Assembly (NCBI GenBank): GCA_009602735.1
Contig: WELA01001229.1
Coordinates: forward strand, 10,853 to 74,852
DNA: 64,000 nucleotides
Source: Mesotaenium endlicherianum
Lineage: Eukaryota
Direction of reading: 5' to 3'
A model generated the notes under the pieces. The model was given only the letters and a program-made list of their open reading frames with translations. It did not search any database and had not been told where the DNA came from. Shown one piece after another: positions 8,101 through 30,672 of this stretch. Every line of letters starts with the position of its first letter. The stretch's first letter is position 1. The position numbers and the translations under genes were made by a program.

Positions 8101-8215
8101 GTAGTTTTCCCATGTATTGGTATATGTAATGGGGAGTATGTCCAGCCATTAAATCACTGCTGTCTCAAAAGGCCAGCCCCCCATAGCTAGTAGATAGTAA
8201 GTTCCGCACCATCTC

Positions 8216-9611: not shown

Positions 9612-10773
9612 TGTCGCGACTGCTATCCACTTCACGTTGCCGCACGCGCGGCGCAAGTCACGACCGCCCAGGTACGGGAAGTCAGCATTGACTCACCGAC
9701 CAGAGGACCGAGATATCTCAGTCAGCGGTCATGTTGAAGTTGTTATCCTTGTCAAAGTGGTCACGACTCGTCAAACCCACACCCAGGAGTGGATGGGGAT
9801 AAGGACAGAGTAGTTAGCCGAAAGGCTAGGGGCATGGAACCAGCAATGAGCCAGCCCAGCGAGTGCCAAGAAAGGTACTGATCAATCGGCTATCTAAGCC
9901 AAGTACAGCAGGGATGTTGCAAAGGGCGTTGTGTGCCGCCTCGGCCAGACCCTCAGGTGACTAGTCACGGCTTGAGCGTTCATCCTAAACGCTGCCAGTC
10001 TGCCACATAGGCGTGATTGTCAGCTGAAAGGCTAAGCGGTCACGCGCGACAATCCCAATGCATGCATGCATGCTGAATGATAACTCCTAAGGACAGTGTG
10101 TGGTTCCTGTGAAAGGCACGAGTCTTGCCTGAAGCTGCCTCATTCTTGCTCGCATCGTTGTCAAAGGAAGCTGAAGAAGCAGAAGGAGGGCAAAGAAGAA
10201 GGAGTTCCCAAGGCCATAGAAGAGCCGGGGCGCCACGCTTCTATCGACGCTGGAAGATTTCTTCCTAAGTATATCATAGAAAGGTTAGACCTCAGGAGTT
10301 CCCAAAAAAGGATCTCGCTGGTAGAAAGTAGAAAGCTGCAGAATAGAATCTGCTAGAAGATTAGCACAGATTTGGGTCAAACGCCGCAAGCGTGCGAGGA
10401 TCACTTAAAATGGTGAGTGCTGTGTTAGTTTCCACGTTCTCAGAAGTCTCGATTGTCGAATTGCTGATAGCAAGAGTAGTATTAACAAGTAAAGCTCTCA
10501 GTGAAGAACTGAGTGAGCCCAGCCAAGCAGTGAAGAGTTGTTAAGGCGCGGTGTTGAGCGAAGAGCTCAAACCAGGCCCGCATAGATGTGCAATTCAGAG
10601 TTTTGTAAGCTGTGACTTGTGGAAGTTAAGCGAAAGCCTTGAAGAGCAATTTTCTCTGAATTTGACATTGCCTGTTGAGCTGCTTAGACGTGATTTCTGC
10701 AAACTACCAACTTGTTCATTGTGTAAATCCTCAACTTGGGCGAAAGCCTGTGTGGAAGTAAGACGCTTCTGTC
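9612..10773 (+). repeat. Element A left repeat: 5'-truncated LTR plus probable PBS/leader
   Basis: Collinear with 29145-30380 except for a ~70-bp deletion near 10090. Candidate LTR end ...CTTAAAA followed by TGGTGAGTGCTGTG at 10411 (possible PBS, uncertain). Confidence 0.85.
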
Positions 10774-11703
10774 CTACTTGTGAGAACTTGGTTGATTGGT
10801 TCAGGTGAGCAATAATTCCCAAGTCAGTTAGGGATTGAGGCCTGTGAAGGCTGCCGGTGTTCAACCTGGAAGGGGACCCGGAGAAATTCAACTGTAAATG
10901 CGATTGAGGAGTAAAAGACTTTACCACTCTGTGGAGCCTGCACAAAGGTTCTGATTCTAGCCAAAGTCCACGAGAAAGTGAGACGTCTGAGCATACTGAC
11001 AATCGGTGGAGTGAGCAACCGTCGAGAGACGAGTCTCGTCATAACTCCGCAAGCGATGAGAACCCAGATAACACACGAGCCTTTGAACCTGATTTGGACA
11101 GAGAGCAAGACGTGTGGGGAAGAGTCAGTGAGTCCTGCTCACCGTTCAAAATGGCCGGTGATCATTGAGATGAAAATTCTAATTTCAAGCTGTCTGCAAA
11201 GTGTTTTAGCGGACGAACCAGCGGAGTGGTCTTACTTTCGAAGAGTTTGATGAGATCTATTGGACAAAATTCTTTGAGAAGATTCAGAAGGATTCTTCTT
11301 ATACGCAGTCCGTCGCATTTACAGGCTTGGTTCAGTACTTGGACAAGGATGCCTTGCTGTTATATTGCAAACTCCGGAAGGATGAGGATCTCACCCAAGA
11401 ATGGACGTTTGGAGAACAGATAGGGCTAGGGATTTGAAAATCCAGAAAGAGGTTGCAAAAGCCCAAATGTCTGCTTTATCTTCAGGAAGACAGTGACAAT
11501 TGCACCTGTTGAGAGCATAGACCTAGCTGCACTAACACAAGAATTAACAGAGGCCATGAGGCAACTCACTGAGGGCCAGCGGAAGGCTGCCACTCAAGAT
11601 GATGATGCCGGCTATGTCGCAGGATTGCAAAAGGTGTGTGCAAAATTGCCTGAAAAGATTGCTAAAGCTCAGGAACGAGTAACACGCAGAGCTACACCTC
11701 TCA

Positions 11704-12759
11704 ATGGTCAGCAGCAATAGCGCCACAACAGAGGCAAGCCATGCGCAAGCCTTGGCTAGCTGTCGTAAGGATATGGAGGCTAGGGATGACCAGCTAGACT
11801 CTAAGCACTGCCTGCGTCGTTTCTTCAAGTTGCTTGAAGCACGATTCCTAGAGGATCGCAGTTTTAAGGTGCATCGTTATGTGCATTTTGTTCGTCAGAA
11901 GAACGAGACAGTCATGGAGGTCAAATCCAGATTGTTAGACCTCGCCAAAAAGGCAAAAATATACGAGCCCAGAATAGTGGCTGACAAGTTTTTGTTGTGC
12001 TTGGGCAAGGAAACAGATCGTGAAGTCAGGCCACATCTGTCCCCAAAGCACGGGATTGACTGGGACATCGACGAGGCGGCTGAAATAGCACGTAATGTCA
12101 AAGAAGGTAAAGTGTGGTATAAGGAGGCTTCCAGGACGCTTATGGCTCCTGAGAGGAGAGAGGAATTCTCTTCGTCTAAGGCCAACAACTCTAATTTTCA
12201 ATTTAAGAAAAAGAGCGGGTCTTTCAATAAGTTTGCTAAGCACGCCAACACTGCTGAAACAGCAGAGAGTTGTTGCAATTGCGGGAAATCAGGACATCAG
12301 GAGAGAGATTGTCCGTACCCAGATGCTAAGCAACTATCTACTAGCAAGGCGCAGATATGCGCACATTGCAGTAAGAAGGGACACTCGGAAGATGAGTGTT
12401 GGTCTAAGAACCCAAATATAAAGCCGCCCTGGGCAAATGCTGCCATGAAAGAGGCCGACAAAGAGAAAAAGAAAGAAAAGGGTGGCTCTGGTAATTGCAA
12501 GGGTAACCAGAAGTATGAAGCTATGAGTGCAAAAATCGCTGAGTTGAAAGCGCAGTTTGCGAAACTAAATGCGCCCAATGTCTACTATGATGCAGATATT
12601 GCAAAAAAGACCGTCTGCAAAGGCGAGAAGCGGATGCCCAAAAAGGCTGTGGATGCAACGGCTGCCGAGCAAGCAGATCACAACCGTCTGGTGCCAAGGA
12701 ATGTTGGGAAGCTTCCTCAGACTTTTTGGATCACTCTGGATGAAAACGAGATCTCGTAG
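11704..12759 (+). pseudogene. gag: Element A gag with two zinc knuckles (N-terminus decayed, probably starts further upstream)
   Basis: CCNCGKSGHQERDC and CAHCSKKGHSEDEC CCHC motifs. Confidence 0.85.
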
Positions 12760-12801
12760 CTACGACAAACCAGGCCCGGGTCGCGCAAGACATTTAGTTT
12801 T

Positions 12802-13440
12802 TTGCTGGAGAAGCTGAAGGCCCTGGTGGAACACCGGATCCAGCATGCTCCTTTGCTTTCTCTCGCCGATTTGCATATCACTTACCCATTCATGGTTGAA
12901 GAGGGCGGACATCAGCTGGATACAGCTCAGGAAGGTGCAAATAGCGCCTCATTGCCCACCAATTTTAGCACCGTGAGAGTGCAAAATAAGGATGGTGCAT
13001 TGATCTTCAACAACTGGGCAGCTCCCAACATTCTGTTGGATACAGGCGCACAGCCAGTCATTTTGGGAAAACGAGCTGTGAAAGCTCTAGGATTGACGGC
13101 AAGGGACTTGAAAGAGAGTCCTTTTCAGCTGAGAACTGCCTCAGGACAAGTCTCAAAGTCTTGTGAGATTACCCGCAAGCCTGTGAAAATCACAGTAAAT
13201 CCAGGGAAACCTGAAGAAGCGTCACTACTCATGGAGTGCACAGTGACGGAAGCTGAGAACTATAATGTTCTCTTGGGAACAGAAGCACAGATTCCCTTGG
13301 GTATGGTCATTGATCTGCAGAAACAGAGGGTGACTTACCAGTCAACAGATAGGCAGCCGGCAGGAGAAATACCTGTGAAGATGGTTTGCATAGGAGAAGC
13401 AAACTACGGATTGCTAGACTGCTACATTAATGACAGGTAA
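12802..13440 (+). pseudogene. Element A aspartic protease
   Basis: ILLDTGAQ catalytic motif and YNVLLG flap-closing motif; in frame with gag across one TAG. Confidence 0.85.
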
Positions 13441-14662
13441 CCTAGAAGCCAGCGACAACCTCATGAAGCAAGAAGAGGAAGGCTATACAAGCATCAACAT
13501 GCCAACACCCTTGGTATGGCAACCCCGGATCATGAAGCAGCTGGAAACTGTGAGTAATAGGGACCACGGCCCGCAAGAGTTGCTGCCAGTACCCTACCCA
13601 GTTACCTCCACTGCAAATTTGATGCCTGGAGTGGAGCGGCTGCTGCAAGGCATTGTCAAGATGGAAGATCCTTTCCGCAAAAGGGGAGTGGTGGTGTTGG
13701 AATTATTTGCCGGACTTGGCTCTGGGACCATAGCATTGATCCAGCAAGGAATAGAGGTGGCCAAAGTCCTGTATGTGGACAACGATGACCACGCTTTTCT
13801 AGCATTCCAAGAAGTCATGAATCAGATGCGACAAATGCATCATTTTAAAGGGTTGGCGCCCGCATATAGCGATGTCGAGCGCATCGCCGGAGGCAACATT
13901 ATGAACGTGAAGCCTGCATACCTGTATGGCTACAAGATTGATTGGATCTTTGCTGGATTCCCTTGTCAACCATTTTCTCAAGCTGGAAACAGGAGGGAAT
14001 TCAGTGATCCACGAGCACAACACTGGGGATGGATGGTGAAAATCAGCATGCTGCGGGAACGTAAGCACTATTACCCACCTGTGTTTGTGATTAAGAACGT
14101 ACATCCAGGAATGGATTACAAGCAGATGAAGCCGGGAGAACTATGGCTGATTTTTGACTCCACTTTGGGCCATCGTGTGCTAATCAACGACGCCAAGCAC
14201 GGAGGATTATCCCATAGGGCCAGGATATTTTGAACCAATGGCATGTTTATTGAGGTTCTGAGAGAAATGGAGGACATTACACGGCGATCACCAACGGCAT
14301 TGACAGTGAAAAAGGCACTGGCGGTGCCTACCAAACCAGTGACCAGGAGGGATTCCTATCCACAGTGTGTCATCAACGAACCAGGCCAGCCAAGAGTGGT
14401 ACTGCCAACCTTTACAGCATATCCAGGATCTCGAGCCTTCATAGGAGGTGGACTAGGAATGGTCAAAAACATACATGAAAGAGACGCCGTGTGGAGAGAG
14501 CCTACCGCGGTGGAAATGGGCAAATGCCTTGGAATACCCGACACCATAGCTCGGCATATAGCCGGTGCTGTAGGGTCGGATGAAGCTGCAAAGATTTTTG
14601 CCATCATGATCGGGCAGCACTCGATGACTTGGTTGGTGGAAACAATCATGACATGGCAATAG
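13430..14662 (+). pseudogene. Retrotransposon-encoded C5 cytosine methyltransferase domain (DNMT3-like)
   Basis: VLELFAGLGSG (I), AGFPCQPFS (IV), VIKNV (VI, ENV mutated), SHRARIF*TN (VIII; compare DNMT3 AHRARYFWGN), REPTAVEMGKCLGIP (IX). Same frame as ORFs 14783, 15581, 16874 and 17090 (RT). Confidence 0.9.
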
Positions 14663-16873
14663 TTGACCTTCACTGACAAGCCTATGCCGAGACCAAGACC
14701 AGTGACAATTGGGTTCAATGTGGTGCCAACATCTGATTAGAGGGCTATCAGAACGGCACATCAGCAACAAGAAGAATACTGGATGCAAAGAGACGCAGCA
14801 GAAGCCGCTGTAGACAAAGCATTCAAGAGAAATAGGGTGGCAGAACTGATGAGATGTCAGGATCTGTTGGACCGGATTGATAACCGGACCAACGAATTAC
14901 AAGCACCTCTAGAAAGGGAGGATACACCCATGAGGGATCAGGCGCCTGAGCAGGCAGCGCCGCTACCACGAGTAGAAGACGATACGCATGGCACTCCGTC
15001 ATCTGCAAGAAACGCCACTCACAGCCAGATTTTTGGGAGCTCACATCCCGGAGCCACGACATCAAGACGTGAAGAGACTCCAGAAGAGGCTAGGTTAGGG
15101 TATGATACCCACCTCAGCCCAAGAGCAGCTGGGCGCGGAGACTATAGGCAGGAAAGCTCAAGTAGCTGGGAAGCTAACCAAAAGTGTCTATCGTCTTCAC
15201 CAGAGCAAGCGTCGTTACAAGACATGTTAGAAGAATCTGAAAAGAAGACTCTTGAGCCTACGGCCGAAAATACTGGATACTGCTTAAACCAAGTACTAAT
15301 GCAAGAACGCCAGTGCAATCTTGGTGAATGGGCTGAAGAGAGTAGCCACAACTCAAGAGATTTTGGAGGGTCAGCAAAGACCATATGTCTCGAAGTGATA
15401 TTTGAAGAACGCCAGGAGGAGTTGGACAAGAAATTGCCTACAACACCTGTCTTGATGAGCCCAGAGCCGCAGGCTAAGGGGTAACAGCAGGGTTCAGCCA
15501 GTCAAACAGCTGAATCCATTGCAAGGCAAATCGTGGAGCAGCTGCTGGACGTAGACGCTTGACAACACAAGGAAAGGGAAGTGGCTAAGGCGGCAAGTGC
15601 TCTGCAATCAGCCATCGTCAACCTGGCGAAGGTCAACACAGATAATGAAGGAGAACCGCCACCACCCGGAGAGGAGAAATCAGTTGAAGATGAGGCCGAG
15701 ATGCCAGACCTTCCAGGGTTCGACCTGCCGTCAGTCACCAATGAAGAGGAGATTTGGGAAGAAATTCCACGTTTTTCTACCCCAGAGCTGGACCTGTTGG
15801 AGCTACAAGAGCTCAGAACGGATGATTGGGTGGACGACCACTTGATGATGGAAGGACCTAGCTCGGCCGATCTTTACAACGATCTAAGGTCGCCCACATC
15901 CAGCACTCCAACCACCAGTTTTCCAGCACCAGAAGCTACCCCACATCAGCTACAACAGCCGCAAGAAGTGGCTGCCTGCATTGCTAAGGTGGAACCAACA
16001 CAAGAAAATCCTCTCGGTCGCGCAAGCAGACCAAGAAAGGTGGCCCGAGAAGGGAAAGCACCTTTCAGGCGGATGCTGATGCGTTATCTCAAGTACAGGG
16101 GAACAGCTCAGAGAGAGGGGGTTCCAAAAGGAACCACGACTCCTCCTCCGCAACCTATCCTGGAGATTTTGCAGATAGAGGGAGAGGATGGCTTAATTCG
16201 CAAAGCCATGGCATTGGGAATTCACATTCCTATGGTGCGCCCCTCATCCACTGGAAAGTGGGAGAAGGACAGTTCAGCTCCTAGGACACCTGCAGTGTTT
16301 GAAAGGGAACTAGTAGAGCTAAGAAGCACCATAAGCCGCTTGACAGCAGAGAATGCTATAAACGCACAACTAGCCGCGGCTCAAAGATCGCAGACTGTGA
16401 CACAAGCATGGAGGGTTACGCCACCAGCCATGGTGGAGTTTGGCACAACCGTTGCGCGCATAGCTACCATTGAGCGCGAGTGGGGTTGGACAATTGGCCC
16501 CAGAGCAGATCCAGCAGGGTGGCCTTTGCCAAACCCACCACGTGAAGAAGGAGGAACAGGGACCAGCTGGACTGCAGCCGATGAAGAAAGATTCTTGAGG
16601 CAGCCCATCCGGAGGCGTCTGACCTACTCCACGCAACAAGAGAGGCGACGATCTATCGGAAAAGGTAAAAGGCCTAAGAAGCAGGCCACCGAGCCTAAGA
16701 CAGAGGAGGAGCAAGCTGCAAAGCCTGCCACTCCACCGCCTAACAATCAGGCAGAAAAGCCTGAAGGCCAGGATGAGGGCGAAAAGCCCCCACCTGGACC
16801 CAAAGAGTAGCAACTACTGGATGCCTGTGTTGGGGAAAAGCAACCAGCAACTGAGGTTTTCATCATTGGAAGC

Positions 16874-19208
16874 ATGGTCTCAGCCCAACGGAGAGCACAA
16901 GTAGGGAGGCTGCCGAAGAAGCACCGCAAGGTGTTTGCTTTTACGAAGGAGGAGATTGGTAGAACCACTGCCAGTATGTGTGAGATCACACTAACTACTA
17001 ATGAACCAGTCAGACTTGGGCCGCATAAGCTCAGTCAGACCGAATGGGACTGTGTGGAGGAAACTTGCTAGGAGCTGCACAAGCTCAGCATGATTGAGAA
17101 ATCTACCTTAATACATGGAGCTCCCACGGTAGTAGTTGCCAAGAAGGACGAGGATGGCAATTATACAACCACTCGTATGTGTGGAGACTACAGACAACTG
17201 AATCTTCACACGAAATCAGACAGCTATGTGATGCCTACACCAAAGCGGATCTTTGCGATTGCTACCACCGGGAAGGCGTTCAACATCATTAATCTACGCC
17301 AAGGCTTCAACCAGATCCCTGTGAAAACAGAAGATTGAGGTAAGACCGCTTTCTGGGCCCAAAGGGAACTTTGGCCATGGACGGTAATGCCGTTTGGGCT
17401 GAAAAATGCCCCAGCCATCTTTCAGAGGACTATGGATAAAGTGCTGGAGGGGCTGGATTTTGCAAAACCATTGATGACGTAGTGGTGTTCAGCAAGTCCA
17501 TAGAGGAGCACCTCGAGCACTTGGAGCAAGTGTTCCAGCGCCTGGAGAAATTCCAGATGACGCTGCACCCTGGAAAGTGCAGATTCTTTGAGGCACATGT
17601 GCCTTACTTAGGACATGGGAACAATGCTATGTCCCCTCGGACTGTAAAGATTGAAGCCATTTACAAGATACCTGCACTAGCGAATGTGTCTAAGCTGAAA
17701 CCTCTGTTAGGGCTAAGCGGATACTATCGTAAATTTGTGAAGGATTATAGCAAAAATGCTAGACCCTTGACAGAACTCCTGAAAAAGGACGTACCTTTTG
17801 TGTGGACGGAAGCCAAGGAAAAGGCCATGAACGAGCTCAAGGAGCGGCTGGTAACGGCCCCAGTCTCGCGAACACCTGACTACTCCAAGCCGTTCAATCT
17901 ACACACCGACTGGAGTCGTGTGGGAGTTGGCGCAGTACTCACTCAGGCCGAAAGTCCTAGAGAGGAGTACGTCATTGCCTATGCCTCGCGCTCTAACAAC
18001 CGAGCGGAGAGCAACTACTCATCCTACGAAGGAGAGCTACTGGCTGTGGTTTGGGCTGTTGCACATGTCAGAGAGTATCTATGGGAAAGACCCTTCACGC
18101 TGATCAAAGATCACTCGCCATTACTCTGGCTGATGAAGAATGGAGACCTCACTGGTAAACTGGCTCATTAGGCTCTCAAGCTCCAGGAGTACCAGATGAC
18201 ACTAATACACCGAGCAGGTATACTCAACAACGACGCCGATGGACTTAGCAGGAACCCGGACCCATCCGCAGACGACCAAACAGGAGCTCGAGAAGACGAA
18301 TATCCGAGCAGCCCAGGAGAATTGGCAGCCTGCCGGGCCGAAATGGCTAGAATGGTAGCATCAGGAGAAGCTGAGCTTCTACCTCTGTTCAGTCCAGAGA
18401 TCTGGAAAGATCAAACCACTATGCATTGGCTGAAGACGGGAGTCTATATAGAAGGATTATCGGTGAAAGAAAAGGACCAGGTGGGCTATTGAGCTAAAAG
18501 GTTTTGTTGGAAACGCAATAACCTCTTCAAGATTGAACAAACTGGTCAGGAGAAGTTAGTGCCAGAACCCACCAAAAGACGAGCTATGGTGCAGGAAATG
18601 CATGAGAATACTAGACACTATGGTGTCAAGAAGACATACAGTCTTCTGGAGCTGTCTTACTGGTGGAGGGGCATGAAGCAGCAGTGTGAGGATGTGATCA
18701 AGGCCTGTACAAGCTGCGATCGCGTCAAGGCTGGTTTTAAGCGGCAACACCCACACCTGCAACCTCTGCCAATCATGGGCCTAGAATACCGGTGGAGCTG
18801 CGATCTCGTAGGTGAGTTATCGCTGTCCAACCGAGGTAACAAGTACATTATGGTCATGATTGAGCATTTTCCTAAGTGGATAGAGGTTGTGCCTCTAACT
18901 GCTAAGGAAAGCTTGGCGACCAAGGAAGCGCTCCTCAATGGTGTGATTGTACGCCATGGAGCCCCAGTAAAAGTGCTGACAGACCAAGGGTCTGAGTTCC
19001 AAGGATCTTTTCAGAAACTCCTGGACAAGTGTTTCATTGACCATCGCACTACGTCTAGAAACCACCCACAAGCAGATGGTCTGGCAGAACGGATGGTGCA
19101 AACCATCAAGTCTGCTTTGCGCAAATTTTGCCTTGAGCATGATAAGCGTGATTGGGATCAGGCCCTGCCATGGCTGGTTATGGGTTACAAATTTAACAAG
19201 CAAGCTGC
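16874..19208 (+). pseudogene. pol: Element A pol: RT, RNase H and integrase core (stops and a frameshift)
   Basis: RMCGDYRQLN, MPFGLKNAP, LHTDWS, NYSSYEGELLAVV, HHCC zinc finger, VLTDQGSEF, HPQADGLAERMV. Confidence 0.92.
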
Positions 19209-20000
19209 TGTAATGAATCAGTATAATAGTAGATATAATGTTCATTTAAATATAATAGTTAATTAAGTTCAGCCTACTGAACTTTATGTAGTATTGAGTC
19301 TGCTGGACTTTATATAATTATCAGTTTAAGGACTCAGTTGGAAGCAGCAGGCTGAAGCCAACTTAAGTCAACTTGCTGACACATTCTTTGACAGCCAACT
19401 GACTTCCATACTCGGTAGCAGCGAACTGCCTAGATATGCATCTTAGTGTGGTGTGCTAGATGAATGGCCAGATGACATCCCATTGATGGATGGCGATTCG
19501 GGATGATAGGAGATGGGGGTGGATTTGGTTAACCGAGGTCCTACCAACGTGGTTAACTCCCAGGTAGGCGGTGCCATCGCACTGGCCGTTGAACAGTAAA
19601 CTCATTCCATGTACATATACTAGGCATTGCTCTCGAGTTCGGCATTCGGAAACGAGGCCAACTCTTTGGTACAGCTTATTGAGAGAGATCTGAATCCAAG
19701 GCGAGAAGCCATTGATACGCACTGTCTTCCAATCTTGCTTATGTATGAGTTTACTGATTGCATTATTGATGCTAGTTTACTTGCATTTGACTTACGAGTA
19801 TTATTCACTGCTAGTGTGCTGTCCTTTGTTGTCGAATCAATTAACGGAAAACACCATAAAGATTACTTACTGATATAAAGATGTTTATTAACTATTAATC
19901 GCCTATTTGGTAAGTCAATTCATTTCAGTGGTATCGGAGCGGTTATCACAGTCTTCTTTGTATGGTAAGGACAAGGTCTCAACTTAGCAACTCCTGAGAC

Positions 20001-23000
20001 ATGGAGAACCAGGATAACGAGAATGTCAAAAATCAGGCGGAAAGCCATGTAGCGGGAACCCGTACCTATTCTGAAGCAGTGGCAGATACTGCAGCTCGAG
20101 AGGCTGCAGATGAGGCAGCTGCTATTGCCGCAGTCGCAACACAGCAAGCTGAGGAGGAGAGAGCCAGATTAGAAGCTGAACAATTAGCAAAAGCTGCTGA
20201 AAATACAGAAAGGAGGGAAGGACAGCCAACTGACGAGCGCACTGTCGAAGAACTTATGGCATCAAGGGCCAATGTTCTGAACCCACCTCTTGCTGTACAA
20301 CTCAATGTACCCCTAGGTCGAATTTGTGACCGGCTGAACGCGGCAGGAATTGCAGTTGCAAGAGCGAGAGGGACTGTTGAGGACACTACTCTGTGAGTAG
20401 ATGCCACTGCTGCTGCTGCATTTGCTAAAATCCCACCTCAGTGTAGACTTGGGAGCATTGTTCGTTCAAATGCGGTCGCAAAAGGCGACCATGTATCAGT
20501 CTCAACAGGAGGACAAAAGAATCATAATGTCTCTACTTCGGGACAGAGACCAATTGGGTTCTCAAACCACTGGTGGTGGTGGCAGAGGGCCTAGTAAGCC
20601 CAAGCCGAAACCTCCCAAGAACTATGATCCTGAGGGACACAAAAAATATTACCTGATCAAGTTTCTCGCGGATGTTGAGCAGTGGCTGGAGAACTACCCA
20701 GAATTGCAAGATTACGAGAAGATCAAACACACTGGTGCGCTACTGAAAGGCAGTGCCGCAGACTGGTGGCTATACTGGAAAGGAGGGCGTAAGCTCAGCA
20801 ACTCGGTGACCCTTCGTGGGTAGAGTTTGTCAAGAAGTTGCATGAGAAGTTTGACGTCATCAACTAGCAAGAGAAAGCTATCTATGTGATGATCTCCTTG
20901 ACACTGAAGGAGACCACTTCAGTTGCTAAGTTTGCTCAAAAGTTCCAGGAGAACATAATGAAACAGCCAGACTTGCTAGAACGGTATAGGCTAGCATACT
21001 TCGGGTATGGCTTGAAATCCGAAGTCTCTGGTCATTTTGCTGAGGAGAAGTATGAGAAATTGGCTGACTTGATCCAGGATGCTGATGCCTGGGATCAGCA
21101 GCAGTTCAATCACAAGCGCCAGAGTAATGCTTTGGTGTCTAAGATTGTCAAAAAGCCCCACGGTTCCTTCAATGCAATTAAAGGAGACCAGGCTGAGGAT
21201 GATCAGGGTGATGAATATGGGTATGAGTACAATGCTATGCAGTCTAGAGGGAGAGGTGGTTTCTCTCGAGGCAGCTATGGAAGAGGTGGTGGTAGGACTA
21301 AGCCGAGACCAGCCTCAACAAAATCGATTTGCTTCCATTGCCAGCAGCCAGATCACTTCAGAGAGCAGTGTCCAGACAAGCACCTTCCAAAGTTCGAGAA
21401 AAAAGACCAGCCTTTAAAAGACAGCAACAGTCAGTTTCCAATCGACTGACTGTGAGGATGCTAGAGATAATAAGTCGTCACTAGCTGCCCTCGTAGCAAA
21501 TATAATGGGTCCTGCTGAACTCGATTCACTATGCATGCCTGACAACCACATAAACAAGACCATCAGCAACATAGACTTCCAGAGAGGGCACACTCTGGAT
21601 GCTCTTGTTCCACCTGATGTCCAACATTTCTTTGCTAAGTCAGGAGAACAATGCGAAAGTCAGGAAAAGACAGTTCCCCCTATCCTTTTGCATTGCATGA
21701 TTGCAGGTAGGAAGGTGAGGGCATTTGTTGACGGAGGGGCGTCACATACTTTTATCCATAAGGACTTAGTTAAGCGGCTAAGGCTGCCTATTGTCACCCA
21801 AGGGAATAGAAAAATATTCCTTGGAGATGCCTCAAGTATCTCGGGAGGAGTTATAACCAAGCCTATTGAGGTCCAGTCAAGTTTTGGCATTGCAATTCTA
21901 ATTGAAACGCTTACATTTGAGGTACTCAACACTGGCTTTTATGATCTCGTGCTAGGCAGAACCTGTCTTAACAGACATTGAGCTGAAGTGTGTTGGAGCA
22001 GAGGTACAGTTAAAGTGAGAGGAGCCAGTGATGGGCAGACTGACTTGGCACCCACCAGTGCTCTTCCTCTTGTCCTGTGTGGATGGCAAATGAAGGAAAA
22101 GAAGAGGCTTCCAGAAGGATGCAAGTTGCTGAATGCAATGGAGTTCGTCAAAAGCTGGAACCAGGAGGAAGACAGAATTATTTGTATGCTACTAAGAGAG
22201 GTACCTCCTCAACCTGAAGAAGTGGTGGAGAAAAAGGTAAGCCCTCCGGAGCACCCTCCTGCTGCAAAAATTGTTGCTCGGTACACGAATGTATTTAATA
22301 TGCCTCCAGGACTACCCCCTAAGAGGGAAGTAGATCATAGGATTGATTTCTTACCTGTGAATCAGCGACCCTGGCAACGCACTTATGGCTTGTCTTATAT
22401 GGAGAGCGAGGAGTTGAAAACACAGATTGCAGAGCTTAATAAAAATGGTTATATTTCCCCTAGTAAATCACTTTACGGCGCACCCATCCTATTTGTTAAG
22501 AAAAAAGAAGTCAGTATGCGGATGTGCGTGGATTACAGAGCTCTAAACAGAATTACAGGTTAGAACAAGTATGCTTTTCCCAGAATCGAGGACTTGCTTG
22601 ATACCCTGTCTGGTGCTGAAGTGTTCAGTAAGATAGATCTCAAGAGTGGTTATCATCAAATTAGAATTGTTGAGGGGGATGAACACAAGACTGCCTTCCG
22701 CACACGTTATGGACACTATGAGTTCAACGTGATGCCATTTGGACTAACAAATGCTCCTGCGACTTTCATGGGTGCTATGAATGACATTTTCAGACTTTAC
22801 CTGGATAAGTTTGTGCAAGTCATCCTGGATGATATTTTAATTTTCTCTAAGGATGAACCTCAGCATGCTGAACACTTAAAGACAGTCATGGACACTCAGA
22901 GAAGGAACAAGTATGCTAAAATGAGCAAGTGTGATTTCTTCAAAGAAAGTATTGAATTCTTAGGTCACGTTGTCAGCAAAGAAGGCATCAGTGTGGATCC

Positions 23001-25217
23001 TAAGAAAGTCCAGACCATAAGGGACTGACCAGTACCACAGTCTGTCTTTGAAGTTAGATCCTTCCTCGGGTTGGCTAACTACTATAGGAGATTTATTGAG
23101 AATTATTCTACAAAGGCCAGTAAACTGACTGACCTTACTAAGAAAGACATAGGGTATGTGTGGGGGGAAGAGCAGCAGGCTGCCTTCCAGACCCTTAAAG
23201 ATGCTCTTTGTTCTGAGCCTGTGCTAGCCGTGTATGATCCCAGCAAACCGGTGCAGGTGGTCACTGATGCCTCTGACTTTGCCATGGATGCTATCTTGTT
23301 GCAGCCTGCTGACAAAACCACAAAGGATGGTAAGGTACGGCAGGAGTGGCATCCTGTGTTGTACGAGTCTATGAAATTTAATCCAGCGGAGATTAATTAC
23401 TCAGTACACGATAAAGAGCTGCTAGCTATCATTCATGTGCTCAAACAGTGGAGAGCATACTTACATGGTAAAGCTTTTAAGGTGATTACAAATCATCTAG
23501 CTCTGACTCACTTTCAAAAGAAATCTAAGCTGTCAAGGAGGGAGAACCGCTGGAGCCAGATTGTGGAGCAATTTCAAGTCCACATCGACTGCAAATCAGG
23601 GAAGTTGAATCCTGCTGATGCACTTTCTAGAAGACCTGACTTGCAAGAAAGGAACTTTAGTCAGCATGCTGTAGATGAAGTCCTGTGTGCACTCACTTCA
23701 CTGAAGGTGAAAAAGTCCTTCCTTGAACAACTTAGGAAAGCCTACCTTTCTGACTCAACATTTGAGTCCAGCCCCACTACTGGTGTGTGTCGTGCTACTG
23801 CACTCGAGTATAAACTTAAGGGAGGAGTCTGGGTGACTGAGACCACTTCAGGCAGGCTGAAGCTGATCATTCCTAATAACTTGGAAATAAGGTCTTTTTT
23901 ATTGAGTCAAGCACATGACAGTTTACTGGGTGGGCATTTGGGGCGGGCCAAAACTGTTGGCAAATTGGCAAAACATCATCATTGGGAGAGATTAACTCGG
24001 GAGGTCTTGAAATACGTTAACTCCTGTGACCAGTGTTAGAAGAATAAGTCGAGGCACACACCACCGGGGGGCCTCTTAAAACCGCTGCCCATCCCAGCTG
24101 GCCGTTGGGAAACACTATCCATGGACTGGGTGGTCACACTGCCACGAACTGCCAATGGGCATGATTGGATATTGGTAGGCGTGGATAAACGGACAAAAAT
24201 GGTCATTTTCATCCCCACAACGTCAAAGTAACTGCACTCGAAACAGCGAGACACTCCTACAACCATGTAGTATGCCAACATGGGCTACCCTCTAATATAA
24301 TCTCAGACAGAGACTTGAAATTTTCCTCTAAGTTCTAGAGGGCTTTAATGGGGTTAATGGGAGTCATGCAGCTGCTCAGCAGAGCAGACCACCCTCAGAC
24401 TGATGGGCAGATTGAAAGAACTAACCGAGTTCTGCAAGAGGTACTGAGAGCCTATATTAACCAAAAACAAGATAATTGGGATGACCTGCTACCTCAAATC
24501 CAGTTTGAGGTCAACAGTGCGGTGCACGCGTCAACGGGCAAGACTCCTTTTGAACTGAGCCTGGGTAGAGTCCCTAAGTCTCCTTCGAATGTACTGGGGG
24601 AGTCTTTAACTCACCCTGAAGAGATTGCCATTCCGGTCTCCCTCCAAGTTAACACAGGAGTTTGCTGACACCCTGTCAGAAGTCCAACAGAACCTGCACA
24701 AAGTCCAGGCAAACCAACAAAAATACGCTAATCAGCACCGTCGAGAATTGATATTTTCTAAGGGCGATTTGGTCAAACTGCATTCTCAGCACCTGTACCT
24801 ACCTAATGTGGTCAAGAAAAAGCTTGGTCCTGTCTGGGTCGGTCCATATTCGGAGGTGCGTCGTGTCGGTCAGAATGCTTACAAACTGAACATGTCAGCA
24901 GAATTCAAGGGTCACCCGGTCTTTAATGTCTCCTTCTTGGAACCATACATCAAAGGGGACACACTGTTCACAAGTCGATTACCTGTCCAACCGAGACCGG
25001 TGCCCGCTGTCCGGGATGGTGACCCTGAGGAATATGAGGTTGAGGAGATTTTAGACGCGCGCTCGGTTCGTCGATCGTCTAAATATGTCATGAAGTACCT
25101 CATTTAATAGAAGGGTTACGATGCCTCTGGGGACACTTGGGAATTTAAGGACCATTTGACCAATGTCAAAGGGGCGTTGAAACGGTTCCACCTTTGGGCG
25201 GCTGGAGCCCCTCCATA
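20001..25217 (+). pseudogene. Element B gag-pol (PR, RT, RNase H, IN, chromodomain) with many stops and frameshifts
   Basis: [72 protein letters not shown]...KGY...TWE. Confidence 0.95.
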
Positions 25218-25599
25218 ACGGTCATTTCAGTTGACACGGGAAGGTGACATGAGGTCCTGTCTCCATCTAAGTTGGAGGGAAAATATATGACAGTAAGTCT
25301 GCGAGAGCGAGAAAGAGACAGTTATGTGAACCTTAAGTGTCAGCATAGTGACAGATGGGACGGTTATGTGAATCCTAAGTGTCAGCATAGTGACAGTGGG
25401 GACATCCTGGCCCACATAAAGCACCTTGGGCGGAAGGAAATAGGGCCTCGCACAGCAATACATCACTTAACGCACCTTAAAACACATTCATACGTTTTTG
25501 TCTAGCGCACCGCAACTACGTCAACTCCTAGCAATCACCCTGTAAGTTAAACAGGAGCGAATCTACCATACTAACACAAACTACTTCCTTCCTGCAATT

Positions 25600-27332
25600 C
25601 CTATGAAAAAGGTCGATATCCTACTAACTTGTGCCCTGGTTACATGTGCAGGATGGCTCCCACCACACAAAAGGAGGACAGAAAGCGCAAGGCAGAAGAA
25701 GCCAGGAGGACAATAGAGCAATACCAGAAGGAGCTGGCGGCGACGTCCCTCACCAGGAGAGAACAAGAAAGGGTCCGCAGACAACAAGAGGCGGCAGAAG
25801 AAGCATAGAGTAAGAAGGATCAGGAAGCGGAAAACCTCAGGAAAGCTGAGGAGGAGAGACAGAAGAAACAACAAGAAGAAGCGGCAGCAGCAGAGGAGGA
25901 GAGAAGGAAAACGGCTGAAGCGGACAGGCAGAAGAGCTTGGCCACTTACAGGTATACTGTGATGGGTGGCCAAAACTTTGATAACCTGAAGGAAGCATTG
26001 CTGGCAGCCCAAGAGATCAACAAGTTGGAACAACCAACACTGCTACAGAGGGAAGGAGCTGCAGCACTCGATAGGAACATTGAGGCACACACTGGTGTGG
26101 TCCTCTACGAAGATTATGCCAAGATGGTGGGCTATACAGCAGAGCAGGCCCGGTACCTTGCAGATGATTCAGAGAACAAGCCGGTCCCAATACCGGGAAT
26201 AGTGGGAGATCAGAGACTCATCAGGCGGGTGAGCATGCGGCCCGATAGCTTGAAGGATACGGTATTCTACCTCACACTACTGCCAGCTTACAATGAAGTT
26301 GAGAGAAGGAGCTGGGAGTACTTGGCCAGGGAAGCAGGACAGCAGATGTTCTCTCCCCACTGGTTCCCATGTAAACTGAGGAAGGCTGAGCATGGACCCC
26401 CAGCACTACCAGCAGCCAACAGACTGGAGGTGGATGACCGTCACAAACAAAAAGCAGGAGTGTGATCGAGCCCAACCGGATGACTTCCACGATGGCCTGA
26501 ACGGCTACCTCATCCTACCACCTCACATTGCCCCTTGGGACTCCAGGCTGAACGGCTGCCTGAGCAATATGAATGCAGAGACCAAAGAGCACAGGAGGAG
26601 GGGGAGAGACTACTTCTCTAAGGGAAAGCATGCTTTCGTCAAATGGGCGAAGAATGCAGGCCGGATAGATATCAGCAGGCTGAAGGCCAAGCAACCTCCG
26701 GCGCGTCCTAAGAAAGGGAGGTCAGTAGACTACTCCATGTCTACCAGGGAGCAGGACAACTTAGTGGACGAGACTCCTACCCTCTCAGAGGAGGAAGATG
26801 AGGAGGATGAGGAAGAAAAACAAGGCAGAGGAGAAGCATCAGGACCTGGTACTCAGCACACCCAGGGGCAGGCAAGAGCAGGGCTTCCTCAAGAGCCAAG
26901 ATCAGGAATATGGCATTTGACCCCGGCCATTGAGGTAACTGAACCGCGCCTCGCTCCCCCAGCCCACCTACCCAAGCAGGGGAAGACGCTGATCTGACTG
27001 TACTTGGCAGCAGACCTAGGCAGAAATCCCCAGAGGACAGGGGTGCCAGAAGAGGGACACGCGGGGTGGCCAGAGATATGCCGGCCTCTCCCTTTGCTCA
27101 GGAGCATGTACCTCTTGCCAATGTATTTCAGCACCCTACTGGAATGCCTGTCCATGTGGGGATCAACACCCAAGTGGTTGAAGAGCAGGCTACCATCCTT
27201 CGTTCTCCTCGAGGTCCAACTGTAGAACAAACGGGGTTCTTTAGAAGACCAGCTGACAGACCTAGAGGGCTGTCCAGATCTAGGTCCAGATCTCAATCTC
27301 CTGATTTTGAAGCCCCAGGAACAACCCCCTAG
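25600..27332 (+). pseudogene. Additional 3' ORF region of element B, unknown function
   Basis: Sense-strand coding-like stretch between pol and the 3' LTR: E/K/R-rich coiled coil, globular part (25938-26997), acidic and RS-rich tail. Copy D has an analogous charged start at 61327. Confidence 0.6.
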
Positions 27333-28163
27333 GTGATAGGCTGAAAAGGCAGTCAGTTGGGGAGGCTGGTCAGGATCAGTTCCCTGACCAAAGACTTCTG
27401 CAGTTTAATGTTGTCGAGGCGACAACAAGTTAAGTTGGAGGGATTGTAATGAATCAGTATATTAGTAGATATAATATTCATTTATATATAATAGTTAACT
27501 AAGTTCAGCCTACTAAACTTTATGTAGTATTGAGTCTGCTGGACTTCATATAATTATCAATTTAAGGACTCAGCCGGAAGCAGCAGGCTGAAGCCAACTT
27601 AAGTCAGCTTGCTGACACATTCTTTGATAGCCAGCTGACTTTCATACTCAGTAGCAGCAAACTGCCTCGATATGCATCTAAGTGTGGTATGCTAGATGAA
27701 TGGCCAGATGACATCCCATTGATGGATGGCGATTCGGGATGATGGAAGATGGCGGTGGATTTGGTTAACCGAGGTCCTACCAACGTGGTTAACTCCCAGG
27801 TAGGCGGTGCCATCGCACTGGACGTTGAACAGTAAACTCATTCCATGTACATATACTAGGCATTGCTCTCGAGTTCGGCATTCGAAAACGAGGCCAACTC
27901 TCTGGTACAGCTTACTGAGAGAGATCTGAATCCAAGGCGAGAAGCCATTGATACGCACTGTCTTCCAATCTTGCTTATGTATGAGTTTACTGATTGCATT
28001 ATTGATGCTAGTTTACTTGCATTTGACTTACGAGTATTATTCACTGCTAGTGTGCTGTCCTTTGCTGTCGAATCAATTAACGAAAAATACCATAAAGATT
28101 ACTTGCTGATATAAAGATCTTTATTAATTGTTAATCGCCTATGTGGTAAGTCGATTCATTTCA

Positions 28164-28802
28164 GCTGCTTTGGCGAATTACTCGCCTTATCAGATTCTGT
28201 TTAGAAGAAGTTCAGTTGTGCCCAGTAGCATCAAGCAGGAGATTAAGCAGGTGAAAGACCTGGACAATCCTGATGAACTGCTAAAGGTCATGTTGCGCCG
28301 CAAGGTGTTATTTGAGCACATGATGCCTGCTGCCCCGGACAATCTGAAAATTGCACAGAAAAGAGACACGCAGCGTTTCGCCAGGACGCGAGATGGGACG
28401 CAGATCCAGGAAGGAGACTTCGTCTACCGCAAGCGCCAGACTAAGACCACCATTGACACCAGTTCAGGTGCAGTGATCTTACGCGTGAAACATGCGTTCG
28501 ACAATGGTGTGTTGGAACTGGAAGGTTTTGATGGTAAGACCATGAGAGATCACGTGCAAAACTGTTTGCTGTGCCATTTGCCAAATATCGATTCTACGAT
28601 TAAGACTGTGCCCGAGGAATTGGTGCCAGCCACGCCTTGTGCCAGCTGCAAAGTGCTGGATGATCAAGAAGCAATGGTAACTTGCGATAAGTGTGGTGCC
28701 CGTTGGCACACCTTCTGCATTGGTGAAGAAGAGATTATGGCAGGACGGGGGGAATGCCCTGACTGCCTTCCCAAAAGCCCCAGCCACAGAGCCAGGAAAT
28801 AG
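28164..28802 (+). pseudogene. Element A integrase C-terminus ending in a PHD finger
   Basis: Resumes after element B (AALANYSPYQILF...). C4HC3 pattern CASC-x11-CDKC-x4-H-x2-C-x12-CPDC at 28638-28766. Confidence 0.88.
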
Positions 28803-28848
28803 AAGCTTTCAACAGAAAGGCAAGGACGCCTCAGCTGAAAGGGAGGGG

Positions 28849-30380
28849 TGTAAGGGAAACTGAAGATAAGCTATCTTTTCGAATTTTTCCTGCTAAGTGT
28901 TGAATGAGGAACTGATTGAACATGGGAAGCACTGAGTGTGAGATGCCTCACCGCATGATGCAAGTGCAGGATGACCAGGAATGGGTCAAACCCCAACCAG
29001 TCTGTCACCGACACACGTGCAAGGGACGATCAACCCGGTCAATCCCCACGTGCAGCGACGCACCGACACGTCAACCAAGTCGAAGACACACGTGCTGAGA
29101 AGCCACGCTCGTGCCAGGAGTCCGACGCTGAAAGGCACGACAGCTGTCGCGACTCCTATCCACTCGACGGTGCCGCACGCGCAGCGCAAGTCACGGTCGC
29201 CCAGGTACGGGAAGTCAGCATTGACTCACCGACCAGAGGACCAAGATATCTCAGTCAGCGGTCATGTTGAAGTCGTTATCCCTGTCAAAGTGGTCACGAC
29301 ACGTCAAACCCACACCCAGGACTGGATGGGGATTACGACAGAGTAGTCAGCCGAAAGGCTAGGGGCATGGAACCAGCAATGAGCCAACCCAGCGAGTGCC
29401 AAGAAAGGTACTGATCAATCGGCTATCCAAGCCAAGTACAGCAGGGATGTTGCAAAGGGCGTTGTGTACCGCCTCGGCCAGACCCTCAGGTGACTAGTCA
29501 CGGCTTGAGCGTTCATCCTAAACGCTGCCAGTCTGCCACATAGGCGTGATTGTCAGCTGAAAGGCTAAGCGGTCACGCGCGACAATCCCAATGCATGCAT
29601 GCATGCTGAATGACAACTTCTAAGCTGTGTGAGAGCTGCTGGGTAAGGACGGCATGCAAGCTAAGCGCTGTGACTAAACACTGGCATTCTCGAGAGAGGA
29701 CAGTGTGTGGTGCCTGTGAAAGGCACGAGTCCTGCCTGAAGCTGCCTCATTCTTGCTCGCATTGTTGTCAAAGGAAGCTGAAGATGCAGAAGGAGCGCGA
29801 AGAAGAAGGAGTTCCCAAGGCCATAGAAGAGCCGGGGCGCCACGCTTCTATCGACGCTGGAAGATTTCTTCCTAAGTGTATTATAGAAAGGTTAGACCTC
29901 AGGAGTTCCCAAGAAAGGATCTCGCTGGTAGAAAGTAGAGAGCTCCAGAATAGAATCTGTTAGGAGATTAGCACAGATTTGGGTCAAACGCCGCAAGCGT
30001 GCGAGGATCATTTAAAATGGTGAGTGCTGTGTTAGTTTCCAAGTTCTCAGAAGTCTCGATTGTCGAATTGCTGATAGCAAGAGTAGTATTAACAAGTAAA
30101 GCTCTCAGTGAAGAGCTGAGTGAGCCCAGCCAAGCAGTGAAGAGTTGTTAAGGCGCGGTGTTGAGCGAAGAGCTCAGACCAGGCCAGCATAGATGTGCAG
30201 TTCAGAGTTTTGTAAGCTGTGACTTGTGGAAGTTAAGCGAAAGCCTTGAAGGGCAATTTTCTCTGAACCTGGCATTGCCTGTTAAGCTGCTTAGACGTGA
30301 TTTCTGCAAACTACAAACTTGTTCATTGTGTAAAACCTCAACTTGGGCAAAAGCCTGTGTGGAAGTAAGACGCTTCTGTC
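28849..30380 (+). repeat. Element A right LTR plus probable leader
   Basis: Starts TG directly after the PPT. Homologous to 9612-10773 from position 29145 onward. Confidence 0.88.
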
Positions 30381-30382
30381 TT

Positions 30383-30672
30383 TGTAAGGGAAACTGAAGA
30401 CAAGCTATCTTTTCGAAAATTTCTGCTAAGTGTTGAATGAGGAACTGGTTGAACATGGGAAGCACTGAGTGTGGGATGCCTCACCGCATGATGCAAGTGC
30501 AGGAAGACCAGGAATGGGTCAAACCCCAACCAGTCTGTCACCAACACACGTGCAAGGGACGATCGACCCGGTTGATCCCCGCGTGCAGCGACGCACCGAC
30601 ACGTCAAGCAAGTTGAAGGCACACGTGCTGAGAAGCCACGCTCGTGCCAGGGGTCAGACGCTGTTAGGCACG
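30383..30672 (+). repeat. Third, partial A-family LTR (first ~290 bp)
   Basis: TGTAAGGGAAACTGAAGA... collinear with 28849-29139. Confidence 0.92.

What the first reader, a model, noticed from the sequence alone, without database searches (positions are those of the whole stretch)
11704..28802. Gypsy retrotransposon carrying its own cytosine methyltransferase and a PHD-finger integrase (writer plus reader)
Seen: a C5-MTase domain (FAGLG, GFPCQ, HRARIF[W]TN) sits between protease and RT, in the same frame as the RT fragments, so it belongs to the polyprotein rather than being a passenger insertion. The integrase ends in a C4HC3 PHD finger instead of a chromodomain. Known: MTase-encoding retrotransposons have been reported in dinoflagellates and charophyte algae, so capture itself has precedent; HRARxFW is typical of DNMT3-type enzymes; PHD fingers commonly read the H3 tail. 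Inference: the element could methylate its own cDNA in the particle, or mark its insertion site, while PHD directs integration by H3K4 state, functionally echoing DNMT3's ADD+MTase pairing. I cannot tell whether this exact architecture is described. This copy is dead (ENV->KNV, stops).
Basis: partly seen in the sequence, partly recalled or inferred. Interest (0 to 1): 0.9.

Follow-up and report, generated by a model that had tools for sequence, protein, structure and literature searches.

The report
Methyltransferase-bearing Gypsy element with split repeats
This is a dead copy of a jumping gene that carries a DNA-methylating enzyme and a likely histone-reading finger; its kind was described in an alga in 2018, and a junction sequence shared with its relatives suggests that it probably inserts by cutting open a DNA circle.

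Summary
Observation confirmed. 9612-30675 is one decayed Ty3/Gypsy element (Gag, protease, C5 methyltransferase, RT, RNase H, integrase, PHD), split by a nested element at 19209-28163. The methyltransferase family is DNMT3-like, keeps its catalytic residues (107-108 of 108 homologues) and is not a passenger. Intact relatives have the same order (P0183, L161). The ends are A-coding-B-A-B split repeats, as in KnitGypsy-Dnmt3 (de Mendoza 2018), so the kind is known. PHD in Gypsy Gag-Pol and DNMT-plus-reader retroelements are also in print, and this scan noted DNMT3+PHD elements, and the permuted repeats, on other genomes. The ADD-like 'reader guides writer' idea is weakened: the domains lie about 1,900 codons apart, with a probable programmed readthrough stop between them, and some relatives lack one or the other. 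Best new lead: the B|A junction is a palindrome, GACA-GC-TGTC, found in 5 of 7 family loci. It marks both element ends, and a 4-5 bp target duplication flanks the unit. This fits an integrase that opens a two-repeat circle, which is inferred and untested.

The parts
9607..9611 (.). Left copy of a probable 4-5 bp target-site duplication ((A)GTGT)
   Evidence: repeated at 30675-30679
9612..10773 (+). Repeat A1, the element's 5' end; begins TGTC
   Evidence: self-BLAST to 29145-30380, 96% identical; start matches the A side of the junction palindrome
10781..10791 (+). Candidate self-priming (Tf1-like) primer-binding site, 11 nt complementary to a site inside repeat A (exact in A2 at 30039; one mismatch in A1 at 10432)
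   Evidence: 9 of 500 resamples reach 11 nt; L161 has a 13-nt equivalent, 0 of 500; no tRNA-type primer site tested
11683..12759 (+). Gag (3' part; upstream part frameshifted) with two CCHC knuckles at 12271 and 12358
   Evidence: (zf-CCHC E 0.033, below cut-off)
12760..13437 (+). Aspartic protease (DTGA at 13039)
   Evidence: Pfam gag-asp_proteas E 4e-7
13682..14659 (+). DNMT3-type C5 cytosine methyltransferase, unpermuted; broken by K at motif VI and a stop at 14231
   Evidence: Pfam PF00145 E 6.8e-14; 105 and 55.5 bits against the retroelement-MTase profile for the two ORF pieces; C-terminal half 61 bits versus at most 11 for 87 non-retroelement hits
14741..16807 (+). Long linker of unknown function (about 786 codons from MTase to RT, versus 80-339 in 16 homologues)
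   Evidence: no Pfam family above cut-off; no BLAST hit among 166 fetched proteins
16808..16816 (+). Probable programmed readthrough stop TAG CAA CTA
   Evidence: CARYYA context; L161 has TAG CAA TCA at the equivalent place (122 vs 131 codons before the RT motif); 5 of 1459 TAG triplets in the window have this context
16817..18168 (+). Reverse transcriptase and RNase H, with stops and a frameshift near 17465
   Evidence: Pfam RVT_1 E 2e-9, RT_RNaseH E 1e-29; 43-54% identical to P0002/P0009
18493..19208 (+). DDE integrase: zinc domain and catalytic core (D 18796 region, D 18979 region, E 19078 region)
   Evidence: Pfam Integrase_H2C2 E 2e-15, rve E 1e-11
19209..28163 (+). Nested, unrelated Gypsy LTR element (not part of the system), TSD GCTGC
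   Evidence: groups apart from the MTase-bearing clade
28169..28802 (+). Integrase C-terminal part ending in a C4HC3 PHD finger (28638-28766)
28837..28848 (+). Polypurine tract directly before repeat B1
   Evidence: purine runs also precede B1 in L161 and L162
28849..29142 (+). Repeat B1, ends GACA
   Evidence: 93% identical to B2
29139..29148 (.). B|A junction palindrome GACA-GC-TGTC (12 bp perfect here), predicted integrase attachment site
   Evidence: only exact match in the window; present in 5 of 7 family loci and 0 of 173 other loci
29145..30382 (+). Repeat A2 (74 bp longer than A1)
30383..30675 (+). Repeat B2, the element's 3' end (terminal bases mutated)
   Evidence: in L162 B2 ends exactly at GACA
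30675..30679 (.). Right copy of the probable target-site duplication

Best explanation
The region is one decayed Ty3/Gypsy retrotransposon of the Gypsy-DNMT3 kind, with split A-coding-B-A-B ends, a DNMT3-type methyltransferase that likely methylates the element's own cDNA, and a PHD-tipped integrase predicted to bind unmethylated H3K4 and probably to insert the element by opening a circle at a palindromic junction. Shown here: domain order, family-wide conservation of the catalytic residues, the repeat layout, the conserved junction, the nested insertion and the lesions of this copy. Inferred steps: (1) The RNA is read as Gag-PR-MTase-linker, with RT-RH-IN-PHD made by readthrough of TAG-CARYYA, so the methyltransferase would be packaged at near-Gag abundance and in excess over integrase. 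(2) Reverse transcription, primed after A and at the polypurine tract before B, would give B-A-internal-B-A. (3) End joining would give a two-repeat circle, recorded as the A2|B2 joint. (4) A staggered cut after each CA of GACA-GC-TGTC would give the usual recessed CA-3'OH ends with 2-nt overhangs, and strand transfer would give A-internal-B-A-B with a 4-5 bp duplication. (5) Writer and reader would act as separate protease products in the same particle, the enzyme on new cDNA and the PHD in target choice, and not as one ADD-like unit.
For: Order and frames. Intact same-order relatives: P0183 and L161. Catalytic Cys 107 of 108, motif VI Glu 108 of 108, motif VIII Arg 106 and 105 of 108, at about 28% identity to this copy. 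A profile of 14 natural homologues finds DNMT3A/B at E 1e-27 to 1e-22, DRM at 2e-15, HhaI at 1e-10. The RT/RNase H tree puts this copy with the PR-MTase-RT group (SH-aLRT 92). Contigs of run X1 cover all 30 bins including the MTase. PHD: all eight ligands in 64 of 64; Gly (58 of 64), not Trp, two residues before the His; best PDB matches PHF10, WSTF, KDM5B, Lid, BAZ2B. Repeats match the Fig. 4c legend of PMC5890265. Junction in 5 of 7 family loci, with B2 ending at GACA in L162 and A1 starting at TGTC here. Readthrough context here and in L161; six more proteins end at the same place. Integrase cleavage of palindromic 2-LTR junctions has precedent (abstracts of PMC1905944, PMC1180852).
Against: No activity was measured, and the K. 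nitens enzyme gave no de novo methylation in yeast, which the authors call inconclusive (PMC5890265 passage). This copy's MTase is a long branch (1.8) that a quick tree does not place inside the family, and alone it hits HaeIII/DRM/HhaI, not DNMT3, in PDB. The B2 end is mutated here, so the TSD can also be read as a short overlap with the junction. Only one complete element with both flanks was seen. L161 and L162 are near-copies from one bin, so the junction count is 4 independent loci plus this window. Readthrough rests on two DNA loci, and other relatives (P0009 group, P0181-P0183) are continuous ORFs. K. nitens sequences were not retrieved, so clade membership is by features only.
Confidence: 0.7

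Rival explanations
1. ADD-like coupling: the PHD reads the H3 tail and brings the methyltransferase to the insertion site, which it marks.
For: PHD features fit H3K4me0 readers, the state that DNMT3's ADD reads (recalled). PHD is listed in 52 of 78 MTase-bearing long proteins. In the larger RH-MTase-IN group the enzyme lies next to integrase and could stay attached to it.
Against: Here the domains are about 1,907 codons apart with a probable readthrough stop between them. PHD without MTase occurs in L165/L166, and MTase without PHD in the P0009 group and Closterium. The MTase sits at two different positions in the family.
Confidence: 0.2
2. The split repeats arise without a circle-opening integrase: by template jumps that give a linear A...B-A-B cDNA, or by a one-off recombination or autointegration in this copy.
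For: DIRS-type elements build the same layout in their own way (PMC5890265 Fig. 1 legend). No circle was observed. The circular contig L161 can be a collapsed-repeat assembly.
Against: A one-off event is excluded by L162, which has the same B1-A2-B2 order ending at GACA, and by the conserved palindrome. The polypurine tract primes at B, not at A, so the A start is not a primer-defined end. No tyrosine recombinase was found in the ORFs scanned.
Confidence: 0.25
3. The methyltransferase does not serve the cDNA. It works in trans on host chromatin or on RNA, or it limits the element's own activity to the host's benefit.
For: These options are discussed in PMC5890265 (section 11). A Gag-level ORF1 product would be abundant. 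MTase-less relatives exist, so it is not needed for transposition.
Against: It is always embedded in the particle-forming polyprotein, next to PR/RT or RH/IN. It is DNMT3-like rather than DNMT2-like (E 1e-27 vs 3e-5).
Confidence: 0.2
4. The methyltransferase is a passenger insertion in this copy or a neutral relic.
For: This copy's enzyme is dead and divergent. Run X5 (organism B) covers gag/PR and RT/IN but none of the MTase bins at 85% likeness.
Against: Same position in intact relatives. Near-invariant catalytic residues. Family-specific C-terminal half. Covered by many contigs in X1. No repeats or termini of its own were found.
Confidence: 0.03

Closest known systems
KnitGypsy-Dnmt3 of Klebsormidium nitens ('Gypsy-DNMT3' of streptophytes); PMC5890265, read: part 1 of the text, sections 9 and 11, passages, searches of the three readable supplements; figures and Supplementary Information PDF not visible
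   Same: Gypsy domain set, unrearranged Dnmt3-related enzyme in the polyprotein, repeats 'the same as that of a DIRS retrotransposon' (A-coding-B-A-B).
   Different: The text names no PHD (0 occurrences in the main text and readable supplements), no domain order, no junction motif, no readthrough and no integration mechanism. Fig. 4c may show the PHD and could not be seen.
Gypsy-7a_cRei of Chlamydomonas reinhardtii; PMC9940879, passages read
   Same: Gypsy whose Gag-Pol contains a PHD finger, proposed to bias insertion; intergenic preference observed.
   Different: No methyltransferase is listed among its domains. Its LTRs have 'subparts', but their layout could not be seen.
EpiLTRs and DAM-chromovirus elements; bioRxiv 10.64898/2026.05.21.726589, passages read
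   Same: A DNA methylation writer and a histone reader in one LTR retrotransposon.
   Different: Reader is a chromodomain, the DNMT is sister to DNMT4, and a DAM domain is present; hosts are Cymbomonas and Euglena.
DIRS-order elements with split direct repeats, including SymbioDIRS-Dnmt3 (PMC5890265)
   Same: A-coding-B-A-B layout; Dnmt3 in Pol, shown active on CG in yeast for SymbioDIRS.
   Different: They use a tyrosine recombinase; this element has a DDE (rve) integrase, a polypurine tract, TG...CA-type ends and a probable target duplication.
Palindromic 2-LTR junction cleavage by foamy virus and HIV-1 integrases; PMC1180852, PMC1905944 (abstracts only)
   Same: A DDE integrase cutting an internal palindromic junction to give processed ends.
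   Different: There the substrate is the end-to-end LTR junction, a side route. Here the site lies inside the B+A repeat and would be the obligatory route.

Membership tests
KnitGypsy-Dnmt3 / Gypsy-DNMT3 | Ty3/Gypsy domain set and order (PR, RT, RH, DDE integrase) | tested here: met
KnitGypsy-Dnmt3 / Gypsy-DNMT3 | Intronless, unrearranged Dnmt3-related C5 methyltransferase | tested here: met
   motifs I-IV-VI-VIII in canonical order; this copy matches the family profile in both halves; family profile ranks DNMT3A/B far above DRM and bacterial enzymes. Tree placement of this copy alone is unresolved.
KnitGypsy-Dnmt3 / Gypsy-DNMT3 | Methyltransferase in the same ORF as RT and RNase H | tested here: inconclusive
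   same frame as N-terminal RT, but with a probable readthrough stop between; continuous in P0183, P0181, P0009
KnitGypsy-Dnmt3 / Gypsy-DNMT3 | DIRS-like repeats A-coding-B-A-B | tested here: met
   also L162
KnitGypsy-Dnmt3 / Gypsy-DNMT3 | Conserved catalytic residues / purifying selection on the DNMT | tested here: inconclusive
   met for 108 homologues at residue level; this copy has lost motif VI Glu and has a stop; Ka/Ks among genomic copies not possible without the genome
KnitGypsy-Dnmt3 / Gypsy-DNMT3 | Same clade as the K. nitens elements | not tested
   no K. nitens sequence was identified among the hits; named relatives are Mesostigma viride, Closterium and Monoraphidium
Chromovirus | Chromodomain at the integrase C-terminus | tested here: not met
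   PHD instead; no PF00385 among the 78 hits; the window's own chromovirus groups apart
DIRS-order (tyrosine recombinase) retrotransposon | Tyrosine recombinase instead of DDE integrase | tested here: not met
   rve and Integrase_H2C2 found, no recombinase family in the nine ORFs of the element scanned
EpiLTR | DAM + DNMT4-like enzyme + chromodomain | tested here: not met
   no DAM or chromodomain family; enzyme is DNMT3-like
PHD finger (H3K4me0-reading type) | C4HC3 ligands; no aromatic-cage Trp two residues before the His; Asp after the third Cys; P-x-G-x-W | tested here: met
   64 of 64 ligands, Gly 58, Asp 54, Trp/Phe 64 of 64; this copy has Gly at that last aromatic position, so it is probably damaged. 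The assignment of these features to H3K4me0 reading is recalled; binding not tested.

The most novel reading that the evidence does not exclude
A widespread green-lineage Gypsy clade has rewired LTR replication. Its DDE integrase does not use the ends of the linear cDNA but obligatorily opens a two-repeat circle at an internal palindrome (GACA-GC-TGTC), which explains the DIRS-like repeats noted in 2018. In part of the clade, a readthrough stop makes a DNMT3 enzyme at Gag abundance to methylate that DNA before a PHD-tipped integrase inserts it.
Probability: 0.5. Interest if true: 0.75.

Novelty: new member of a known kind. Interest (0 to 1): 0.5.

Why it matters
The headline pairing (Gypsy + DNMT3, plus a histone reader) has precedent, so it is not a new system. 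What matters is that the anatomy makes two open points testable. First, how a Gypsy element with a DDE integrase comes to have DIRS-like split repeats: a conserved 10-bp junction gives a defined substrate for an integrase assay and would be a natural case of integration through a circle, a route long debated for retroviruses. Second, what the captured DNMT3 does: its place on the Gag side of a probable readthrough stop predicts high abundance in particles and favours action on the element's own cDNA. The family also looks much wider than the published K. nitens case, with two positions for the enzyme and members in chlorophytes.

Tried and rejected
No whole genome was held, so no copy census, Ka/Ks or empty-site test. 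A word-index search of longer proteins with the MTase found nothing; the full HMMER scan found 250. Sequencing runs: no RNA holder listed; RNA runs X6 and X12 gave 41 and 21 laid reads, mostly on repeat A and the nested LTR, taken as no evidence on expression. Termini in other copies from the host's own runs were not obtained and remain open; no atlas look-alikes were obtained. MTase-pattern scans of metagenome and viral contigs returned 159 loci, none with the family's RT, integrase or PHD. A viral scan with the integrase alignment gave one unrelated PHD locus, and an 18-nt junction pattern found 0 viral contigs. Plasmid tblastn gave two generic RT matches. No tRNA gene in the window and no Rfam family in 9000-31000. 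Duplex scanning for the primer site was uninformative; only the exact-complement test was kept. The MTase tree cannot place this copy (long-branch warning). The RT/RH tree is the quick version, with two outgroups only. I first read the termini as a one-off circular permutation and rejected that after L162. Paper searches that found nothing: DNMT3+retrotransposon+PHD+moss+Gypsy+integrase, Klebsormidium+DNMT3+retrotransposon+Mesostigma, readthrough+CARYYA+retrotransposon. Searches listed no paper whose title or abstract start concerns Gypsy elements with split repeats or with DNMT3+PHD; I opened only PMC8557442 and PMC9940879 from them. No structure or complex prediction was run.
Full report
1. 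Observation. A six-frame motif scan found FAGLG at 13706, GFPCQ at 13955 and HRARIF at 14213 in one frame, and a C4HC3 pattern at 28638. Pfam on 22 ORFs of the window gives, in order: zinc knuckle (weak), aspartic protease (E 4e-7), DNA_methylase (E 6.8e-14), RT/RNase H (E 2e-9, 1e-29), integrase (E 2e-15, 1e-11) and, after 9 kb, PHD (E 8.6e-5, 22.9 bits against a cut-off of 24). The MTase frame has 8 stops between 13418 and 17462, against 65 and 75 in the other frames, and carries the first half of RT. Protease and the rest of Pol lie in another frame, behind frameshifts near 13430 and 17465. The 9-kb gap is a nested Gypsy element, 19209-28163, with a GCTGC duplication and LTRs 95.3% identical. 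Motif VI reads KNV and a TGA lies at 14231.

2. Termini. Self-comparison shows no ordinary LTR pair. The layout is A1 (9612-10773), coding, polypurine tract, B1 (28849-29142), GC, A2 (29145-30382), B2 (30383-about 30675). A1/A2 are 96.0% and B1/B2 93.3% identical. (A)GTGT stands on both sides of the whole unit, a probable 4-5 bp target duplication; B2's last bases are mutated, so this reading is likely but not certain.

3. Relatives. phmmer of the unbroken MTase ORF against 1.84 billion representatives gave 250 hits at E up to 0.001, of which 150 were listed. A search with the MTase region of one relative gave 78 long proteins, 52 of them with a precomputed PHD and none with a chromodomain. 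Of 240 proteins held, 118 carry retroelement domains and fall into two layouts: enzyme between PR and RT, as here, and enzyme between RNase H and integrase, the majority (Pfam checks on 25 and 7 of them). P0183 has exactly this window's order, PHD included. So has locus L161, evidently a eukaryotic contig within a bacterial bin. Named members come from Mesostigma viride, Closterium and Monoraphidium. The host of this window is unknown; a green alga or non-seed plant is my inference from these relatives. After dropping 13 near-duplicates or fragments, 108 retroelement MTases keep the catalytic Cys (107), motif VI Glu (108) and motif VIII Arg (106, 105). A profile of 14 natural homologues ranks DNMT3A/B/C (E 9e-27 to 6e-22) above DRM (2e-15), HhaI (1e-10) and DNMT2 (3e-5). 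This copy alone is too divergent for that: its best PDB hit is HaeIII and it is an unplaced long branch. But its C-terminal half scores 61 bits against the family's own C-terminal profile, versus at most 11 for 87 non-retroelement hits. On a quick RT/RNase H tree of 76 rows it groups with the PR-MTase-RT layout (SH-aLRT 92), sister to the other layout (88). In run X1, 10,817 contigs were laid and all 30 bins, the MTase included, are covered; in X5 the MTase bins are empty (depth is not copy number). The passenger reading fails.

4. The PHD. All eight ligands are kept in 64 of 64 homologues. The position two before the His is Gly in 58, Asp follows the third Cys in 54, and P-x-G-x-W closes the finger. 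Best solved matches are PHF10, WSTF, KDM5B, Lid and BAZ2B. From recalled knowledge this is the pattern of readers of unmethylated H3K4. This copy has Gly where all 64 have Trp or Phe, so its finger is probably damaged too. PHD and MTase are separable: L165/L166 have PR-RT-RH-IN-PHD and no MTase even at a relaxed threshold, and the P0009 group and Closterium elements have MTase and no PHD.

5. A probable programmed stop. Of 11 stops examined, only TAG at 16808 is followed by CAA CTA (CARYYA; recalled as the tobamovirus-type readthrough signal, no paper found). L161's single in-frame stop, TAG CAA TCA, lies at the equivalent place (131 versus 122 codons before the RT motif). Background is 5 of 1459 TAG triplets. 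Six more proteins end 87-99 residues after the MTase with the same last residues as L161's first ORF. Other relatives are continuous. So here the enzyme is probably on the Gag side and IN-PHD on the readthrough side, about 1,907 codons away, which argues against an ADD-like unit.

6. The junction. B1|A2 is the palindrome GACA-GC-TGTC, the only exact match in the window. It occurs in 5 of the 7 family loci and in none of the other 173. The two family loci without it end 409 and 499 nt after the PHD; about 0.013 matches were expected in the family tails and about 1.9 in the rest. L161 and L162 are near-copies. Both layouts have it (L161, L167). In L162, B2 ends exactly at GACA and foreign sequence follows, and here A1 begins exactly at TGTC. 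The primer sites predict a linear B-A-internal-B-A cDNA: the purine tract precedes B, and an 11-nt (here; 9 of 500 resamples) or 13-nt (L161; 0 of 500) self-complementary site follows A (lead from note e1-7226033). The integrated form is that molecule circularised and reopened at B|A. A staggered cut after each CA would leave the standard processed ends. This is inference; cleavage of palindromic junctions by retroviral integrases is reported (abstracts).

7. Comparison with what is known. PMC5890265 describes KnitGypsy-Dnmt3: Dnmt3 in the Pol ORF of a Gypsy element whose repeats are those of a DIRS element, under purifying selection, inactive in a yeast test that the authors call inconclusive; it proposes cDNA methylation. 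'PHD' does not occur in its text or three readable supplements; its figures and main supplementary PDF could not be seen and may show the domain. PHD in a Gypsy Gag-Pol is stated for Gypsy-7a_cRei, and PHD fingers are called a common accessory domain of Chlamydomonas elements. Writer-plus-reader retroelements are described as EpiLTRs, and TE capture of PHD and Chromo readers is surveyed in bioRxiv 10.1101/2021.11.30.470311 (passages). PMC6338049 (part 1 and passages) only cites the 2018 work. Searches found no paper on DNMT3+PHD Gypsy elements, on the junction or on the readthrough, within the library held. Earlier notes of this scan report the same kind on other genomes; they are leads, not support.

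8. Verdict. A real, decayed member of a known kind; novelty 'new member of a known kind', interest 0.5. The strongest remaining value is the conserved junction and the readthrough stop, which turn an unexplained repeat layout and an unexplained enzyme into direct tests.

Noticed in passing
window 1430-3337 (minus strand): A second, unrelated C5 cytosine methyltransferase (Pfam PF00145 E 8e-12 and 5e-14 in two pieces, ENV intact, broken by stops), in frame with ORFs of no Pfam family; scores only 18 bits against the retroelement profile. Possibly from a DNA virus or another mobile element.
   Followed up: partly
window 46389-53068 (minus strand): Young chromovirus: 503-bp LTRs 99.2% identical, TSD CAAGA, uninterrupted 1230-codon pol with chromodomain; a 98% identical partial copy starts at 61632.
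   Followed up: partly
window 53115-61123: Second copy (85-90% identical) of the nested Gypsy element, itself interrupted at about 56225-58325 by a stretch with a DDE_Tnp_1-like zinc finger.
   Followed up: no
window 14741-16807: About 690 codons of low-complexity linker between MTase and RT with no family match, much longer than in homologues.
   Followed up: partly
window 31858-36000 (+) and 40668-44728 (-): Host genes: an amidase with an assembly gap (N at 32397-33194) and a MutL/PMS-type mismatch repair gene.
   Followed up: no
window 8165-8979: Tandem array of about four 190-bp units just upstream of the element.
   Followed up: no
P0046, P0053, P0213; P0017, P0090: Some relatives add a PTM/DIR17-like Tudor domain at the integrase C-terminus (after the PHD in P0053 and P0213), or a G-patch between MTase and integrase.
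   Followed up: no
P0075: A 1053-aa protein combining PHD, a PCIF1-like domain and a C5 methyltransferase of this type, with no retroelement domain in Pfam.
   Followed up: no
L161-L167: Eukaryotic retrotransposon contigs sit in several prokaryotic genome bins of the GTDB set, probably binning contamination.
   Followed up: partly
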